A DNA stretch of 64,000 nucleotides from Kondoa subrosea (lineage: Eukaryota). The stretch lies in the NCBI GenBank assembly GCA_039545335.1, contig BCIN01000003.1, positions 2,117,060-2,181,059 of the forward strand. Reading direction: 5' to 3'. Of this stretch, positions 37,181 through 46,055 are shown one piece after another. The notes beneath the pieces are model-generated. The model worked only from the letters and a program-made list of their open reading frames with translations. It was not told the DNA's origin and did no database searches. Made by a program: the position numbers and the translations under genes. Each line of letters starts with the position of its first letter. The stretch's first letter is position 1.

Positions 37181-37389
37181 ATCTACTATTGAAGGATTTA
37201 TTGAGGCAAGTGAGCCGCGGTAAGAGAGCAACCGGTCGAAATGGCATTATCCATGACTTCATACCCATACGGCCAAGATTCTCGCATTGTTTCTCCTTTC
37301 TGGCCTGTGTTGACTACATGCGCATCAGATCACATAGACCTGTATCTGAGTAGTCCTCTAAAACCCGTTTTGTCTTCCCTTCCGCCTTC

Positions 37390-38165
37390 ATGACTTGCGT
37401 AACTGCACACGCAGCATATTGCTTCAATGTCCTTGCAGCTCATCTGAACAAGACCTCTCTGCCTCCTGCAACAGATCTGCCTCACGGAAATGAAGATTTC
37501 CCTCTGTTTGTGACTTGGAATATCCGGTCTTCTTCTGCTACTGATTGGAGCAAAGCGAGGTTGAGAGGCTGTATTGGTAATTTCAGTGGGATGCCTTTGG
37601 AGAAAGGGTTAAGAAAATATGCAATCATTTCGTTCGCTTCTGTTTTCAGACTATCAAGCTTGTATTTCGTCTGATGAGGATTGGATCAGGGCAATGAAGG
37701 ATACTCGATTTAACCCTATTTCGCTCTCTGACCTACCACGATTGGAATGCGGGTCCGTCTTTCATTTATTCTCCAAGTATTTCTTCTTCTTATGATATGT
37801 ACAGAGTCTCGCTTTTGACACACTTCGAACCTTGTTCCAACGCATACGATTGGGAACTTGGTAAACATGGCATTCACGTCTATATCCCTCAATCGAACGG
37901 AGCAAGAGAATTAAGTGCTACTTTCTTACCGGATGTAGCACCTGAACAAGGTTGGTCGAAAGAAGAAACTTTGGAACATGCGATTCGGAAATCGGGGTGC
38001 AGGTCAATCTTCCTTGCTTGCTTTGTTTGCATGAATATTTCAACTGATGCAGAGAATAGAGCAAAGATTGATGAGCAGCTGATTGAGAGACTGAGGGTTG
38101 AGCGATACCAGTCTAGCAAGTGTAAGATGAATTATGATGAATGGAAAGTAGGCAAGGACGTATGA
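37390..38165 (+). CDS. AMMECR1-domain protein
   Basis: FPLFVTWN, RLRGCIGNF, DTRFNPI, VSLLTHFE, DWELGKHGI, ATFLPDVAPEQGW, RYQSSK. Confidence 0.95.
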
Positions 38166-38353
38166 GTTCCGGCTGCATGTATATTCTATGTCAATGTAGT
38201 TAAAAGACTTCATGTACGAATTCATGGACGACTTGGTCAAATGACGGCGGAGACGGTTTTCTTCAAACGGTTACTCGAACTCCTGGTTGATATATCATAT
38301 TCCAGTGCAGTTACTGGTATACCACTTGCGCTTACGATACCTAGGACGCACAA

Positions 38354-39382
38354 ATGTCTCGGCATCGATTGGTCAAACAATTGAACATAGCAGGTGCGAA
38401 GAAATTGCTTTCAGTCTTGCCTGTTCAGGCATTCTGACTTGCGATGCTTATACAGACGAGCTAGACGACGATGCTTTAGACTATGATGCAGGCGAAGACT
38501 ACGACATGGACGAAGGGCAGCGAGCTCAGATGGATTCTGGCGTTCAAGCAATTCAGGCAATACTTGGGTCTCAATCGGGGATAGAAGAGAAGGATATCAG
38601 AGAGGCTCTGTGGAATTATTACTTTGATGTGGATCAATCTGTAGAAGCATTATTAGGTGGGTCGAATGCGATAAACGCTTGAGATCTGGCCTGAATCGTG
38701 AGGGTAGATGAGAAGCATAGAAAGGAAGCTGCTGAAGCCAAGAAACAGGGTGAGCCATACTTCCTTTCTTCTACCTCTTGCCTTTCCTTTCCTCTTCTTC
38801 TCGTCGATGGATCAAACCCGTTTATTTCGACTTGCTTCAGACGAAACAATACCAGTAACAGAAGATCTACAATCGTTGCAAATACAATTTCAACCTCCGC
38901 CTGCAAAGATGTCTTTATCGCAATTAGCCGCTGCTCGCTCAGCTGTCAAGACCTCTTCCGCTCGACCGAAAACAGCTGCAGAATCAGCAAGCAAGACTAC
39001 ATTAGTACCAGCTGAGGCCAAGCCGATGTCTAAATTGGCTGCTTTAGCCGCTGCACGAAAGGAAGCAGCAGAAGCCAAACCCCTCTCAAAGCTTCAACAA
39101 AGAATGCAAGGCCTGCCTACCAAGAAAGCCTCTACCGCTATACCAGAGCCAATAGTCGAGTCTCTACCTAAATCTGCGTTGTTTGATCAGTGTCAAGATG
39201 TTTCTGCTACACCCTCGCCATTTGCACATACCCTCATACCAACGAACTGCGAACCATACATTGTAGCTCAGCAATCAGTCGTCCAACTAAGTCAGATATT
39301 CCCTTCTGCCTTCAATCAGCCATCTCCAGACGATATAGTCAATACTGCTCGGAAATCAGCAACTTTCAACAAACGCAAATAA
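38354..39382 (+). CDS. Ski7-like short isoform from the HBS1 locus (proximal acceptor at 38840; no GTPase domain)
   Basis: In-frame exon 38841-39382 carries SKLAALAAARK, ATPSPFA and AFNQPSPDDIV, then a TAA stop. Confidence 0.8.
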
Positions 39383-41530
39383 AACTTCCTCAATCATCCT
39401 TATAACCATCTTCTCATATACCTCTATCATCCCTCCTTCTTCGAAGAGCTGTTATACATATCGGAACTCAGTACTGATACCTTTTCCTTCTCACAAACAG
39501 AAGCCAAGCGAAAGAAAGCCGCTCAATCCGCTGCTTCTACACCTCTTGCATCTGGTCGATCAACGCCGATACCAGGCGGAACACCTAAGAAGAAGAAACC
39601 CACCCAACAAACGCAAGCGGTAGTCAGTACATTGCAAGCGGATGTAGAAGCGCTTGGACTTGGTCCTTCTTCAAGCTCCTCGAGAGCGGACCTAAATGGT
39701 CGGAAAGAGGAAGAAGAGGAAAGGGAAGAAAAAGTGGTTTTTAGAACGAAAGATGAGATCATGAAGGAGATTGAAGCGAAGCAGAAAGAAGGTAAACCTG
39801 TTTTATCACTGGTCGTTGTCGGTCAGTCTATCGGATCCGACCAGTGTGATCGGTTACTGATATCATATGGATGACAGGTCACGTGGATGCTGGCAAAAGT
39901 ACTTTGATGGGAAGAGTTTTGCATGACCTTGGCGAGATCAGCGATCGAAGTGTTCAGAACAATCAACGCAACAGTCAGAAGATGGGCAAAGGCTCATTCG
40001 CATATGCTTGGACTTTTGACGCATTACCAGAAGAGAGAGAACGGTAAAAGCAATCCATTTTCATCTTCAGTCTATCTGAAGCGAATTTGGTGAATTACAG
40101 AGGTGTTACCATCGACATTGCTGTCGATTCTTTCTCTACCGAACATCGACAATTCACCTTGATCGACGCACCAGGTCATCGAGATTTTATACCCAACATG
40201 ATTTCAGGCGCGACTCAAGCAGATACAGCTTTACTCGTAATTGACGCTTCTAGTGGTGCTTTTGAAGCCGGCTTTGGCGAAAACGGTCAGACGAGAGAAC
40301 ATGCATTGCTTGTACGGAGTCTGGGTGTGCAGCAAGTAGTAGTAGCTGTAAACAAACTAGATGCAGTAAGTTGCAATTCTCTTGTGAAGTATCAAGCTCT
40401 GATATTATTTGCAGGTTGGATGGTCCGAAGGACGATATACCTCAATATGCGATCAATTGCGACCTTTCCTCATTTCGATCGGTTTCGCGTCAACGAAAGT
40501 TTCTTTTGCTCCTTGTGCTGCTATGGCGGGCGAAAACATCGCTTCATGTACATCGGAAGAACTCAGATCTTGGTACGACGGGCCGACGCTAGTTCAGCAA
40601 CTCGGTACGTTTACGTCCTGTATGTGCGAGACTTTCCTCAGACTGACCGCACCCATCATTTAGATTCACTCAGCGTACCGACTAGAGCTATACAAGCACC
40701 GTTACGGTTACCCTTATCGAATGTCTTCAAGAGTCAGACTTCAGGTCCTTCTGGGCTAGGTGCCAGTGGAAGGATAGAAAGCGGTGTATTGCAAGTAGGA
40801 GAGACTGTTGCCGTCTTACCGAGTGATCAGACTGCTACCATCAAGAGTAGGTCGACTCATTCTTGGTTTATTGCGGGAAGTGAACTGACGCTTTTCTCAT
40901 AGATATCGAAGTTGATTCTGATCGAGTGCCATGGGCTGTAGCTGGTCAAAACGTGACTGTTTATCTATCGAATCTGGATCCGATCTATCTCGCGTGCGTG
41001 ATCTTCTGTTTTGAGCAACAGGAGTTCTGATAGCGTTGCCGCAGATCTGGATGTGTTCTTTGCCCACCGGATCATCGAGTTCCTCTAGCTACTACGTTCT
41101 CGGCACAGATCATTGTGTTTGACCTCAAGTTCCCGCTGACGGCAGGAGCAGCAGTAAGTCGACTCTGATTCAGAAGAAGCTATTCTTAGATATATTTACA
41201 GGTCGAGCTCTTCCACCACAGCAGAGAGATTCCAGCTACAATATCCAAGCTTGAAGCTACACTAGATAAAGCTTCAGGTGAAGTCATAAAGCAGAATCCA
41301 AGGTGCGTTTCTCGGAAGCAGTTGCAGAATAAAGCTGAAGCTTCGACCCAAGGATGCTGTCATCTGGCTCGTCAGCAAGAATACAGATCAAACTGCGATC
41401 TTCTGCTTCTTCTACTCAAACAGCGGTAGTACCACTGGAGCCCTTCAGCGTGAACAAGTCAATGGGTCGAATCCTTTTGAGACGATCAGGTCAAACGGTA
41501 GGAGCGGGAGTTGTACTATCCATCTTGTAG
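38354..41530 (+). CDS. HBS1: Hbs1 translational GTPase (ribosome rescue); long isoform splices 38749 to 39501
   Basis: MSRHR N-terminus, IREALWNYYFDV, VVGHVDAGKSTLMG, EERERGVTID, DAPGHRDFIPNMISGA, NKLD, and C-terminal GRILLRRSGQTVGAGVV. Confidence 0.95.
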
Positions 41531-41685
41531 CCAAATAACAAGTCACCGAAACTCCGACCCTATCGCTGAGGTGATAACCGGCTTTCGTCGGGATTAGACT
41601 CTGCTCAACGCAAATCAGCGATTTTGGGGAGAAGCATTGAACACTCTTTCTTTGTTACCCTCTCACCTCTTTAGAAAATACCAAT

Positions 41686-44600
41686 ATGTCCACCAAAGCG
41701 TGCGTACATACACTGAACTACGCGCTTCTGCCTTGAGAAGCTGATTCTTTGAAAAATTCATGCATCTCCAGAATTTACGAGGCAGACGCCAAACAAGTAC
41801 TTGCTTATTGGTTAAGCCGAGCTCCCAACCACAGCAAGAACACCACTGTCAGCTCTTCGTTCAAAGCACCAGAACCCAAAGTCGCCCAGGTTGGTGTATA
41901 GAGTGCGCGCGCGCTATGGTGTTCATTTCCTGACTGTACACGAATAGATCTCTTGGGATTCAGCTACAAAACAAATCACGCCTGACTCGGCACTCCCTTC
42001 TTGGGTCTTCAACACAAAACTAGTCGTCAAGCCGTATGTCTAAGATTGTAGACTTGCATGACAAGCTTCTCATTAATTTCGGTGGGGCAACAGAGATCAA
42101 CTTATCAAGCGTCGTGGGAAAGCTGGTCTGCTCGCGCTCAACATTGAATGGCCTGAAGCTAGAAAATGGATTGAAGCTCGGTAATGCAACTTTTCGCGCG
42201 CATTGACCTCGATCTAATTTGAGCCTTGCAGCGCTGGCAAACCAGTGACTGTCAGTCAAACATGAGCAAATGATAAGATCTTGGCTTATTTCGGCATTTT
42301 TGAACTGACAGGTTGATGGCATTACTGGAACGCTACACAACTTCATTGTCGAACCTTTCCTACCTCATCCTTCCAACACCGAATACTACGTCTGCATCAA
42401 CTCTGTTCGTGAAGGCGATATTATTCTTTTCACTCACGAAGGTGGTGTCGAAGTTGGAGATGTAGATGCCAAAGCATTGAAGCTGCTAGTACCCGTTGGC
42501 GGAACCCTTCCATCTAGATCAGAAATTGCTTCGACGCTGCTGAAAGATGTGACAAAAGAGAAGCACGAAGCGCTCGTCGACTTCTTGGTCGCTCTTTACA
42601 ACGTTTACGCTGACCTACACTTCGCTTACCTTGAAATCAACCCTCTCATCTGCCTTGATGCCGTCAATGGCGAACAGCCAGCTATTCACTTCTTGGACAT
42701 GGCTGCTAAGCTCGATCAGGTCAGAAGAATGTCGATACAATTGTGATCTTGGCTGAATTTTCCATTGACAGACCGCAGATCACCTTTGCGGACCTAAATG
42801 GGCTATTGCTCGAGACAGCAGCAGCGCAGCACCAGCAGCGGGAGCTAAAGTCAGCGCCGATCGTGGCCCACCAATGGTCTTCCCTGCTCCTTTCGGTCGT
42901 GATTTGACCAAAGAAGAAGCCTACATCCAAAAACTTGACGCTTCTACTGGAGCTTCCCTCAAATTGACTGTCTTGAACCCTGAAGGACGTGTATGGACTA
43001 TGGTCGCTGGTGGAGGTGCTTCAGTCGTATACTCGTAAGCCTATCGATGCCGGGCTACGTTTAATTACTAAAAGCTGGAACCCAGTGACGCTATTGCTGC
43101 ACATGGTTTCGCTCACGAACTCGCCAACTATGGTGAATACTCTGGAGCACCAACAGAGAACCAGACATACGAATATGCAAAGACCATTCGTGAGTAGCTC
43201 AACTATAGAAGTTTGACAGAAACTTAGTAGGACGATGCATCTCACAGTTGATCTCATGACTCGCGGATCACCAAACCCTAAAGGCAAACTTCTCATCATC
43301 GGTGGTGGTATCGCCAACTTCACAAACGTCGCTTCAACCTTCAAGGGTATCATTCGTGCTCTCAAGCAATTCCAACAAGGTCTTCAACAACACAAAGTCC
43401 GCATCTTCGTTCGACGTGGTGGACCAAATTACCAAGAGTGCGTAATTGTTATGTATCGAGAGAAGTTTGCGCTGACACCGATCTTTAGAGGTCTAAAGGC
43501 TATGCGTCTCCTTGGTGAAACTCTTGGTGTCGAAATTCAAGTCTTCGGTCCTGATGACTTCATCACTGCTTGCGTTCCTCTTGCTCTCGGTGTCAAGAAG
43601 AGCGAAACTTTGAGTGTACCAAACGGTATCAGCAACGCCAACCCTACACCTGTTCCTTCACGCGCTCCTTCTCCAGCACCAGGTCCATCTACCCCTCGCC
43701 CTCAAGAGACCGTCGGTCCATCTCGCGGCAACGGTAGACACGAAGATATCGTCTCATTCGAAAAGGAAGCTAGCAAAGGATCAGCTCAGAGACCATGGTA
43801 CAGACCTTTCGACGAGACTACTCGTTCTTTGGTCTATGGTCTCCAACCTCGTGCTATTCAAGGCATGTTGGACTTTGATTTCGCTTGTGGGCGTGAAACT
43901 CCTTCTGTTGCTGCTATGGTCTATCCTTTCGGTGGTAACTCTATGCAAAAGTGTAAGTCGTTCTTGAATACTGTTCAGCTAAGGGGCTGATGCTGGTCTA
44001 GTCTACTGGGGAACCAAAGAAACTCTTCTACCAGTCTTCACTTCAGTTGCGGAAGCAGTCAAGAAATGCCCTGAAGCCGATGCTCTAGTCAACTTCGCCT
44101 CTTCTCGATCTGTCTACTCTTCTACTCTTGAATGTCTTGAATTCCCTCAAATCAAGTCTATTGCTCTCATTGCTGAAGGTGTACCGGAACGTCATGCTCG
44201 GGAAATCTTGTTCTTGGCTCAACAAAAGAAGGTCATCATCATCGGTCCTGCTACTGTTGGTGGTATCAAGCCTGGATGCTTCAGAATTGGTAACACCGGA
44301 GGGTGAGCAAAACTTTCGCTGGTCTATCGAGATCTGACTTTAAAGACTTCACTGTCCACAGAATGATGGACAACATCCTTGCTTCCAAATTGTACCGTGC
44401 TGGTTCCGTTGCCTATGTTTCCAAGTCCGGAGGCATGTCAAACGAGCTGAACAACATTCTTTCTCTTTGTAAGTGACATGTTCATCTATGATTGAATGAA
44501 TGCATTTGAACGTTGACTCTACAGCTACCGATGGAACATACGAAGGTATCGCCATTGGTGGTGATCGCTACCCTGGAACAACTTTCATCGACCACTTGCT

Positions 44601-46055
44601 CCGATACGAAGCTGACCCTAACTGCAAAATGCTTGTTCTGCTCGGTGAAGTCGGAGGTATCGAAGAATACAGAGTCATTGAAGCGGTCAAGAGTGGAGCC
44701 ATCAAGAAGCCAATTGTCGCTTGGGCTATCGGAACTTGCGCCAAAATGTTCGCTACTGAAGTCCAATTCGGTCATGCTGGTTCTATGGCCAACTCTGATC
44801 TTGAAACTGCTGAGGCTAAGAACAACGCCATGAAGGCTGCTGGTATCATTGTGCCAGACACTTTCGAAGATCTCCCAGTTGTCCTCAAGAACGAATACGA
44901 ACGTCTGCTCAGCGAAGGCATCATTTCTCCTAAAGCTGAACGATCACCACCGAGCATTCCTATCGATTACAAATGGGCTCAAGAACTTGGTCTTGTTCGA
45001 AAGCCCGCTCAATTCATCTCTACCATCTCAGATGAGCGTGGTCAAGAACTCCTCTACAACGGTATGCGCATTTCAGATGTCTTCAAGGAGGATGTAGGTT
45101 CTGCCGGCTTTCCCCTTAATTCAGTCTGACATTGCAAATAGATTGGTATTGGAGGTGTTATGGGTCTCCTTTGGTTCAAGCGAAGACTGCCTGCTTATGC
45201 AACCAAGTTCTTGGAGATGGTTCTCATGCTTACAGCCGATCACGGTCCAGCTGTATCTGGTGCCATGACTACCATCATCACTACACGAGCAGGCAAAGAT
45301 CTCGTCTCATCTTTGGTCGCTGGTCTTCTGACCATCGGTGACCGATTCGGTGGTGCTCTCGACGGTGCTGCTGCTGAATTCACTCGCGCGCTGGATACTG
45401 GTCTCACACCAAGAGAATTTGTCGATTCAATGCGAAAGGCAAACAAACTCATTCCTGGTATTGGTCACAAGATCAAGAGCAAGACCAACCCTGATCTACG
45501 TGTCGAGCTGGTTAAGAACTACGTCAAGGAACATTTCCCCGTCACCACCGTATGTCATTTTTTCTATTCAAAAATAAAAATTTTCTTTTACTGACCAATT
45601 ATAGACTTTGGATTACGCTCTGGCAGTCGAATCAGTGACATCAGCAAAGAAGGATACCCTCATTCTCAACGTTGATGGATGTATTGCTGTGTCTTTTGTC
45701 GATTTGCTCAGGTCGTCTGGCGCTTTCACTGCCGAAGAAGCTGAAGAATACATGAAGATCGGAACTCTGAACGGTCTGTTCGTTCTTGGTCGAAGCATAG
45801 GTTTCGTTGGACATCACTTGGATCAGAAGAGGCTACGTGCAGGTCTTTACAGGTAAGTCGAATTCATTGCTGTTGCTTAATCCGATAGCTGACTGCGCCC
45901 ATGTAACACCTACAGACATCCTGCAGACGATATCCTGAGTTGCAAAGCCCTTGTAAACGTAAACTATGCTCATACCTTTTTTTCATCTTCTACAGCATAT
46001 TACCGCTTTCGAGCCAGAAAGAATCGTTGTTCAACCATCAAAGAGCAAAGCGTAG
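41686..46055 (+). CDS. ACL1: ATP-citrate lyase, single fused polypeptide
   Basis: [68 protein letters not shown] and LYRHPADD, all in one gene. Confidence 0.97.

What the first reader, a model, noticed from the sequence alone, without database searches (positions are those of the whole stretch)
38750..39500. One gene, two mRNA-surveillance factors: alternative 3' splice sites give a GTPase-less Ski7-like protein or Hbs1
Seen: the donor at 38750 (CAG G|GTGAGC) joins in frame to two acceptors. The proximal one (TTCAG|, 38840) gives an exon of about 180 codons with SLSQLAAAR, SKLAALAAARK, SKLQQR, ATPSPFA and AFNQPSPDDIV, ending in TAA at 39380-39382 with no donor evident just before it. The distal one (ACAG|, 39500, branch point TACTGAT) skips that exon and leads into the full Hbs1 GTPase. 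Known: PSxF and F..PSPDDIV are the exosome-binding Ski7-like motifs, SKI7/HBS1 dual coding by alternative splicing is described in other fungi, and human HBS1L has a short GTPase-less Ski7-like isoform. Inference: this locus uses the human-like truncated design and needs a polyA site at ~39383-39470. Standard annotation would probably miss it.
Basis: partly seen in the sequence, partly recalled or inferred. Interest (0 to 1): 0.7.

Follow-up and report, generated by a model that had tools for sequence, protein, structure and literature searches.

The report
Basidiomycete two-in-one SKI7/HBS1 gene
This fungal gene is built to make either the ribosome-rescue GTPase Hbs1 or a short GTPase-less exosome adaptor (Ski7) by choosing between two splice acceptors, a design already known in humans and already proposed for related fungi.

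Summary
Observation confirmed. The phase-1 donor at 38750 fits both acceptors: 38840 gives a 274-aa protein (HBS1_N plus a 180-codon exon, TAA 39380-39382), 39500 gives a 628-aa Hbs1. The exon is conserved coding sequence: three relatives stop just after the same PSPDD motif, and a profile of the exon end hits only human HBS1L-short (E 1e-7) and yeast Ski7 in the PDB. All 40 metagenome loci sharing this gene's G1 intron have the same stop-then-acceptor layout. It is the only Ski7 motif found in the genome. No RNA run was listed, so use of the junctions and the 3' end are inferred. Two corrections: a polyA site in the spacer is plausible but not needed for the protein; and annotation often does catch this form (28 of 36 named GenBank models). 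Not new: Marshall 2013 proposed the truncated form for Cryptococcus and Ustilago and noted the human parallel; the scan has found SKI7/HBS1 dual coding before in other fungal genomes. Side observation: a conserved extra donor-like word in agaricomycete-type copies, absent here.

The parts
38354..38393 (+). Shared exon 1 (coding part, ATG 38354, MSRHR start)
   Evidence: Gene model; the same MSRHR start in P0002, P0003 and many named models
38456..38656 (+). Shared exon 2, HBS1_N domain
   Evidence: PF08938 E 3.5e-15; single match in the genome
38708..38749 (+). Shared exon 3 (42 nt), ends at the shared phase-1 donor
   Evidence: the matching small exon is seen in P0005 (64% identity)
38750..38840 (+). 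Proximal intron (91 nt): donor GTGAGC, long CT-rich tract, no CTGA[CTA] branch word, acceptor CAG
38841..39382 (+). Ski7-specific terminal exon, 180 codons to TAA
   Evidence: homologs P0004-P0006 at 61, 51, 36% identity
38909..39103 (+). Three short S-L/K-L-x-x-L repeats (MSLSQLAAAR, MSKLAALAAARK, LSKLQQR); S1-like, candidate Ski3-binding helices (inferred)
   Evidence: SKL..AA and SKLQ.R invariant in alignment A1; resemblance by eye to motif S1 in Marshall 2013 Fig. S1; yeast helices H1-H3 bind Ski3
39206..39235 (+). [quoted passage not shown]
   Evidence: P,S,F,A,L invariant in A1; profile aligns it to human ARPSAFASTL; consensus from PMC6143672
39308..39355 (+). AFNQPSPDDIVNTARK, motif S3 / Patch-4-like, candidate Csl4 contact followed by the Ski2-contacting helix
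   Evidence: Only match of the F-x-x-P-S-P-D-D pattern in 18.9 Mb; PDB hits to Ski7
39378..39471 (+). Candidate 3'-end region of the short mRNA: AATAAA over the stop (39378), pyrimidine-rich spacer, TTATACATAT near 39452-39461
   Evidence: Sequence; AATAAA alone is weak (353 of 2000 shuffles); inferred, no RNA
39472..39500 (+). Branch point TACTGAT and distal acceptor (end of the 751-nt intron 38750-39500)
39501..41530 (+). Nine Hbs1-specific exons (39501-39821, 39878-40043, 40101-40365, 40415-40604, 40664-40846, 40903-40993, 41045-41153, 41202-41302, 41353-41530): linker and translational GTPase
   Evidence: Open 628-aa frame with 48-59 nt GT-AG introns; GTP_EFTU; 40% identity of the linker exon to P0002

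Best explanation
This is the single SKI7/HBS1 gene of a basidiomycete (probably Pucciniomycotina). Three shared exons encode HBS1_N. The donor at 38750 is joined either to the distal acceptor (39500), giving Hbs1 (628 aa), the GTPase that delivers Dom34/Pelota to stalled ribosomes, or to the proximal acceptor (38840), giving a terminal exon and a 274-aa protein without GTPase. In that protein the repeated short helices bind Ski3 and the PSPF and PSPDD motifs bind the exosome (Rrp43/Mtr3, Csl4), bridging the Ski complex and the cytoplasmic exosome. The short mRNA most likely ends in the 118-nt spacer after the stop (about 0.65), so the choice works as an alternative last exon, as in human HBS1L. 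Shown: frames, phases, stop, motifs, uniqueness in the genome, conservation of the layout. Inferred: use of each junction, the 3' end, all binding.
For: Both joins are in frame from one donor. A 751-nt intron among 48-62 nt introns holds a 210-codon frame (0 of 2000 shuffles). The 3 of 3 phmmer hits end 13-20 residues after SPDD; the closest ends with the same N-K-R-K. Two GenBank models of related fungi join the small shared exon straight to a similar exon start (EDTAP, GDAIP versus DETIP; by eye). Of 57 metagenome loci with motif and G1 motif, the 40 with this gene's VVxG|HVD intron all stop 23-55 aa after the motif start and have a phase-1 acceptor among the first two open-frame YAGs after the stop (first YAG in 34 of 40); 27 distinct clusters. 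28 of 36 named NCBI models end there without GTPase. The PDB search gave 5 hits, all Ski7-type: human HBS1L short form E 1e-7, yeast Ski7 E 0.11-0.23. One HBS1_N and one PSPDD-pattern match in the genome, both here; Ski2 and Csl4 genes are present. Spacers carry TATA/TGTA/TACA words at 51 per 2725 nt versus 7 per 1452 nt in an ordinary intron of the same loci (words chosen after looking, loci related). Literature.
Against: The proximal intron lacks the CTGA[CTA] branch word that the other 11 introns have, so this acceptor may be weak or lie at 38855/38861. Phase-1 donor candidates exist at 39291 (GT) and 39375 (GC). The nearest named relative, P0002, is annotated as an 859-aa fusion with the GTPase, as are 6 of 36 other named models. 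Five of 57 loci read in frame from the motif into the GTPase, five need an onward intron, and L064 has a clean donor just before its stop, so onward splicing does exist in other lineages. One cluster (L055) has only 29 nt between stop and acceptor, too little for a usual polyA spacing. The exon has no Pfam hit, and BLASTP to P0002 is not significant. The metagenome set was picked by a motif pattern and is mostly agaricomycete-type, not close kin.
Confidence: 0.82

Rival explanations
1. Same short protein, but no polyA site in the spacer: the Ski7 mRNA runs on through 39501 to the gene's normal end and carries the GTPase exons as a long 3' UTR, which may make it an NMD target. Differs from the best explanation only in the 3' end.
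For: The stop precedes the spacer, so the protein does not need it. AATAAA at 39378 is reached by 353 of 2000 shuffles. L055 has a 29-nt spacer. [quoted passage not shown]
Against: Spacers are enriched in TA-rich words over an ordinary intron; human exon 5 ends in its own polyA site. A 1.7-kb UTR with introns would be a poor way to make a needed cofactor (inference).
Confidence: 0.25
2. The exon is a cassette: the Ski7 form is spliced onward from 39375 (GC) or 39291 (GT) to 39501 and keeps the GTPase, as in ascomycetes.
For: Both candidates are phase 1. P0002 and 6 of 36 named models are fusions. Read-through or onward-spliced loci exist (11 of 57 counting L064).
Against: GCAAAT lacks the +5 G and the exon-end G; 39291 would cut out PSPDD. 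The tail up to the stop is conserved in P0004. Only 5 of the 40 like-structured loci have any phase-1 donor-like word between motif and stop, at no shared place. The six fused models join at six different points after the motif, as forced introns would (inference).
Confidence: 0.08
3. The Ski7 form comes from an internal promoter in the CT-rich intron and starts at ATG 38909 (MSLSQLAAAR), as C. albicans does with its S1 ATG, giving 157 aa without HBS1_N.
For: No branch word before 38840; CT-rich tract; the ATG sits at the S1-like motif; precedent in C. albicans.
Against: The Met is absent at this place in P0005, P0006 and P0003 and P0002, while the segment upstream of it (DET.P ... L.SL.L) is similar in them; many named models join HBS1_N to the exon (25 of the 28 truncated ones carry PF08938).
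Confidence: 0.06
4. The exon is a decayed remnant or chance frame and only Hbs1 is made.
For: No Pfam hit; weak proximal branch site.
Against: 61% identity to P0004 with invariant motifs, no stops, the only Ski7 motif found in a genome that has Ski2 and Csl4.
Confidence: 0.03

Closest known systems
SKI7/HBS1 of Cryptococcus neoformans and Ustilago maydis (Marshall et al. 2013, PMC3597508; passages of the main text, Text S1 whole, Fig. S1 part 1 read)
   Same: Single basidiomycete gene; the Ski7 exon is skipped for Hbs1; a truncated Ski7-like protein ending at a stop just after motif S3, without GTPase, was proposed, and existing annotation was said to bridge the stop with a false intron.
   Different: [quoted passage not shown] Here the layout is a plain shared donor with two acceptors, and the Ski7 exon is short (180 codons).
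Human HBS1L short isoform (HBS1LV3 / HBS1L3 / SKI7): PMC5389692, PMC4942675, PMC11540850 (passages read); PDB 9g8m chain E
   Same: Shared N-terminus, alternative last exon, no GTPase; PSxF and SPDDIV motifs in the same order at the C-terminus; the basidiomycete profile matches it at E 1e-7.
   Different: The human exon encodes about 490 aa against 180 here; the Arg of RxxxFxxxL is Thr here; binding is proven in human and only inferred here.
Ascomycete SKI7/HBS1 (Lachancea kluyveri and others; PMC3597508, PMC7491326 passages)
   Same: One donor, two acceptors; proximal gives Ski7, distal gives Hbs1; S1-like and S3 motifs.
   Different: There the Ski7 form reads on into the GTPase (and the L. 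kluyveri short form keeps S3, Fig. S1); here a stop ends it and Hbs1 has no Ski7 motif.
Marshall et al. 2018 PNAS (PMC6055164): not held; title seen in reference lists; content recalled
   Same: Recalled: transcriptome survey showing SKI7/HBS1 alternative splicing across eukaryotes and four kinds of Ski7-like protein, including GTPase-less ones.
   Different: Could not be read; it may already give RNA proof of this exact layout in basidiomycetes.

Membership tests
Hbs1 (eRF3/EF1A-like translational GTPase) | HBS1_N domain at the N-terminus | tested here: met
   PF08938 E 3.5e-15; single copy
Hbs1 (eRF3/EF1A-like translational GTPase) | Intact GTPase domain with G1 (GHVDAGKST), G3 (DAPG) and G4 (NKLD) in one open spliced frame, distinct from EF1A and eRF3 | tested here: met
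   the other genome hits read as EF1A, eRF3 and mitochondrial EF-Tu (names from their sequence, recalled)
Hbs1 (eRF3/EF1A-like translational GTPase) | Binds Dom34/Pelota and rescues stalled ribosomes | not testable with these tools
   From family knowledge
Ski7-like exosome adaptor | Motif S3 / Patch-4-like F-x-x-P-S-P-D-D-[IV]-V | tested here: met
   39311-39340
Ski7-like exosome adaptor | SKI7-like motif A+PShFAahL upstream of S3 | tested here: met
   ATPSPFAHTL; aligned to human ARPSAFASTL by the profile; the + position is Thr; consensus
Ski7-like exosome adaptor | S1-like short helices that bind Ski3 | tested here: inconclusive
   Three conserved repeats; likeness to yeast S1 by eye only; not covered by the PDB matches
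Ski7-like exosome adaptor | Physical bridging of exosome and Ski complex | not tested
   No complex prediction was run; Ski2 and Csl4 genes exist
Dual-coding SKI7/HBS1, human-type (alternative last exon) | One donor compatible with two acceptors; Ski7 exon ends in a stop with no onward donor | tested here: met
   same layout in 40 of 40 like-structured loci; two weak phase-1 donor candidates remain
Dual-coding SKI7/HBS1, human-type (alternative last exon) | Both mRNAs are made, and the short one ends after the Ski7 exon | not testable with these tools
   No RNA run to lay on the locus; sequence hints only
Dual-coding SKI7/HBS1, ascomycete-type | Ski7 isoform continues in frame into the GTPase | tested here: not met
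   TAA at 39380-39382, 118 nt before the distal acceptor

The most novel reading that the evidence does not exclude
Basidiomycetes set the Hbs1:Ski7 ratio with a built-in switch: a deliberately weak proximal acceptor (no branch word here) competes with a 3'-end signal and a strong distal acceptor, and agaricomycete-type copies add a conserved second donor (GAAG|GTGC, 20 of 22 clusters) whose use shifts the frame or adds a small exon, so that the exosome adaptor feeds back on its own mRNA through decay. This would settle the mechanism that Marshall 2013 left open and add an autoregulatory loop that the five paper searches did not turn up.
Probability: 0.12. Interest if true: 0.55.

Novelty: new member of a known kind. 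Interest (0 to 1): 0.22.

Why it matters
If right, it extends the human-type, GTPase-less Ski7 isoform to a further basidiomycete lineage and gives a very compact natural Ski7 (274 aa, with all adaptor motifs in 180 codons), handy for structure work on the Ski-exosome bridge. It also helps annotation: one-model-per-gene pipelines report the short form or a false fusion, and then Hbs1 or Ski7 looks missing. It does not change the picture of the pathway; the design was proposed for basidiomycetes in 2013 and proven in human.

Tried and rejected
RNA evidence: no RNA holder listed for 38300-41600; no reads were laid. Word-indexed search with the exon alone against longer proteins found nothing; the full HMMER search then found 3. 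Pfam has no model for the exon. The ESM Atlas gave no answer. BLASTP of the exon against P0002 was not significant, so that comparison rests on motifs seen by eye. My first gene model had two one-base slips at acceptors, corrected. Retention of the 91-nt intron shifts the frame and stops early: rejected as a coding form. AATAAA over the stop as proof of a polyA site: rejected as weak. A second SKI7 or HBS1 gene: none found (these searches give lower bounds). Of 120 metagenome pattern matches, 63 had no G1 motif within 1.8 kb (chance hits or short contigs) and were dropped; of the 57 left, 17 lacked the VVxG|HVD intron or could not be resolved and are reported apart. Marshall 2018 could not be read. 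Paper searches; none showed a paper on Ski7 in Pucciniomycotina or on the extra agaricomycete donor, but the library lacks most subscription papers and one search returned only off-topic listings. No complex or structure prediction was run: a Ski7-exosome pair is a solved textbook case and full-length partners of this organism were not at hand as unspliced sequence.

Full report
Observation. The window lies in an 18.9-Mb, 27-contig eukaryotic genome. The gene starts at ATG 38354. Exons 38354-38393, 38456-38656 and 38708-38749 are shared; the second holds HBS1_N (E 3.5e-15). The donor at 38750 is phase 1. Joined to 38841 it gives 274 aa ending at TAA 39380-39382; joined to 39501 and eight further exons it gives an open 628-aa frame with GTP_EFTU hits. 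The ten constitutive introns are 48-62 nt; the distal one is 751 nt and holds a 210-codon sense frame, which 0 of 2000 shuffles reach (9 of 2000 reach 179). After PSPDD there is no phase-1 GT; a poor GC (39375) and a GT before the motif (39291) are in phase. The proximal intron alone, of 12, has no CTGA[CTA] word, and three more in-frame AGs follow its acceptor.

Organism and copy number. The two named hits of the HBS1_N exon are Rhodosporidiobolus microsporus and Phenoliferia sp., so this is a basidiomycete, probably Pucciniomycotina (class membership recalled). The genome gives one HBS1_N match and one match of the F-x-x-P-S-P-D-D pattern, both here, and 0 for the reversed control. Other GTPase hits read as EF1A, eRF3 and EF-Tu. 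Ski2_N and EXOSC1 (Csl4) each match once. These searches are lower bounds.

The exon is conserved. phmmer over 1.84 billion proteins gave 3 hits at 61, 51 and 36% identity. All are unnamed, look like raw frame calls, and end shortly after PSPDD..ARK; SKL..AA, SKLQ.R, PS.FA..L and F..PSPDD.V..ARK are invariant. P0005 and P0006 also show the small shared exon and the read-through intron upstream. A profile of ten exon ends returns 5 PDB sequences at E up to 10, all Ski7-type: human HBS1L short form 9g8m_E at 1e-7, covering both motifs, and yeast Ski7 at 0.11-0.23. The profile is mostly agaricomycete-type, so this places the family, not this protein alone.

The layout is conserved. 57 have a G1 motif within 1.8 kb. 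Forty share this gene's intron between VVxG and HVD: all 40 stop 23-55 aa after the motif start and have a phase-1 acceptor among the first two open-frame YAGs after the stop (the first in 34); 7 have a donor-like word between motif and stop, 5 in phase 1, at no shared place. They fall into 27 clusters at 85% identity, with 29-185 nt from stop to acceptor (118 here). In the ten loci printed (middle of the output cut) the shared donor is phase 1, as here. Their tails match named agaricomycete proteins, hence 'agaricomycete-type' (inference). Against universality: of the other 17, five read in frame into the GTPase, five need an onward intron, four stop without that intron (L064 with a clean AG|GTAAGT just before its stop, which also shows the scan can see a real donor), three were unresolved.

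Annotation. A profile search gave 285 proteins, 120 listed; 112 of 120 end within 60 aa of SPDD, many being raw frame calls. Of 36 with an NCBI name, 28 end there without GTPase (25 carry HBS1_N; for example Coprinopsis cinerea CC1G_14593), 6 are fused to the GTPase at six different join points, 2 are other. So annotation often reports the short form; it loses the dual coding.

3' end. AATAAA overlaps the stop but arises in 353 of 2000 shuffles. TATA/TGTA/TACA words are about four times denser in the 27 spacers than in an ordinary intron (51/2725 versus 7/1452, Fisher p 1e-4; the words were chosen after looking and the loci are related); the window's spacer has 4. One spacer is only 29 nt. A polyA site in the spacer is likely (about 0.65) but the protein does not depend on it.

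Mechanism. Shown: frames, phases, stop, motifs, conservation. Inferred from solved homologs: yeast Ski7 helices H1-H3 bind Ski3 and later helices bind Csl4, Mtr3, Rrp43 and Ski2 (PMC10659929, PMC4942675; passages); human SKI7 binds RRP43-MTR3 with residues 555-572, CSL4 with 602-616 and SKI2 with 617-632, and its shared N-terminus binds the 40S subunit (PMC11540850; passages); the PSxF-type motif is the main exosome contact and SPDDIV a minor one (PMC5389692, PMC6143672; passages). The 274-aa form has the matching elements in the same order, so it most likely bridges Ski complex and exosome, and the 628-aa form works with Dom34 on stalled ribosomes.

What is known. Marshall et al. 2013 (PMC3597508; main-text passages, Text S1 whole, Fig. 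S1 part 1) report that C. neoformans and U. maydis skip the Ski7 exon for Hbs1, that the annotated intron after it is probably false, that a truncated GTPase-less protein ending after motif S3 results, and that this resembles human splice form 3; they leave the exact mechanism open. Marshall 2018 was not readable; from recall it surveys this with RNA-seq and may close that gap. [quoted passage not shown] The scan's own notes list seven earlier SKI7/HBS1 findings in other fungal genomes, with ascomycete genes as closest known (unchecked).

Verdict. Real, well supported by sequence and conservation, not shown with RNA. A new member of a known kind; interest 0.22. The part with some novelty lies beside the finding: the weak proximal acceptor here, and the donor-like word GAAG|GTGC found once upstream of the Ski7 exon in 20 of 22 agaricomycete-type clusters with enough sequence and absent from this window. 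Its distance from the shared donor (85-130 nt in 15 clusters) is not a fixed frame, so it is not a plain coding extension; two GenBank models (P0030, P0031) use a small exon there. I did not see it in print.

Noticed in passing
L010:1056-1071, L022, L023, L034, L038, L041, L070, L078, L079 and others (oriented coordinates): A donor-like word GAAG|GTGC occurs once in the intron between the shared donor and the Ski7 exon in 20 of 22 agaricomycete-type clusters, 85-130 nt after the shared donor; absent in L055, L066 and the window. Could be a microexon, a small cassette exon (P0030 and P0031 model one), an alternative first exon or an unproductive splice.
   Followed up: partly
window 38750-38840: The proximal intron is CT-rich and is the only one of 12 introns without a CTGA[CTA] branch word; four in-frame AGs (38840, 38855, 38861, 38864) lie in a row.
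   Followed up: partly
window 39291 and 39375: Two phase-1 donor candidates inside the Ski7 exon could give minor GTPase-bearing forms, one without PSPDD.
   Followed up: partly
L016, L116: Intron-poor, GC-rich loci where the PSPDD motif reads in frame into the GTPase (L016 also has PSPF upstream); if these are basidiomycete yeasts, the long design also exists in the phylum. Taxon not determined.
   Followed up: no
L064:726-790 (oriented): A strong phase-1 donor sits two bases before the stop after PSPDD: a cassette-type SKI7/HBS1 in another lineage.
   Followed up: no
window 37354-38165: An AMMECR1-family gene (PF01871) ends only 188 nt upstream of the HBS1 start codon on the same strand.
   Followed up: no
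window about 42000-45100: Downstream gene reads like a fused ATP-citrate lyase (name recalled from the translated frames, not tested).
   Followed up: no
P0002 (GAA5916124.1), P0035, P0055, P0066, P0085, P0096, P0121: GenBank models that fuse the Ski7 exon to the GTPase at differing points; probably false introns across the stop.
   Followed up: partly
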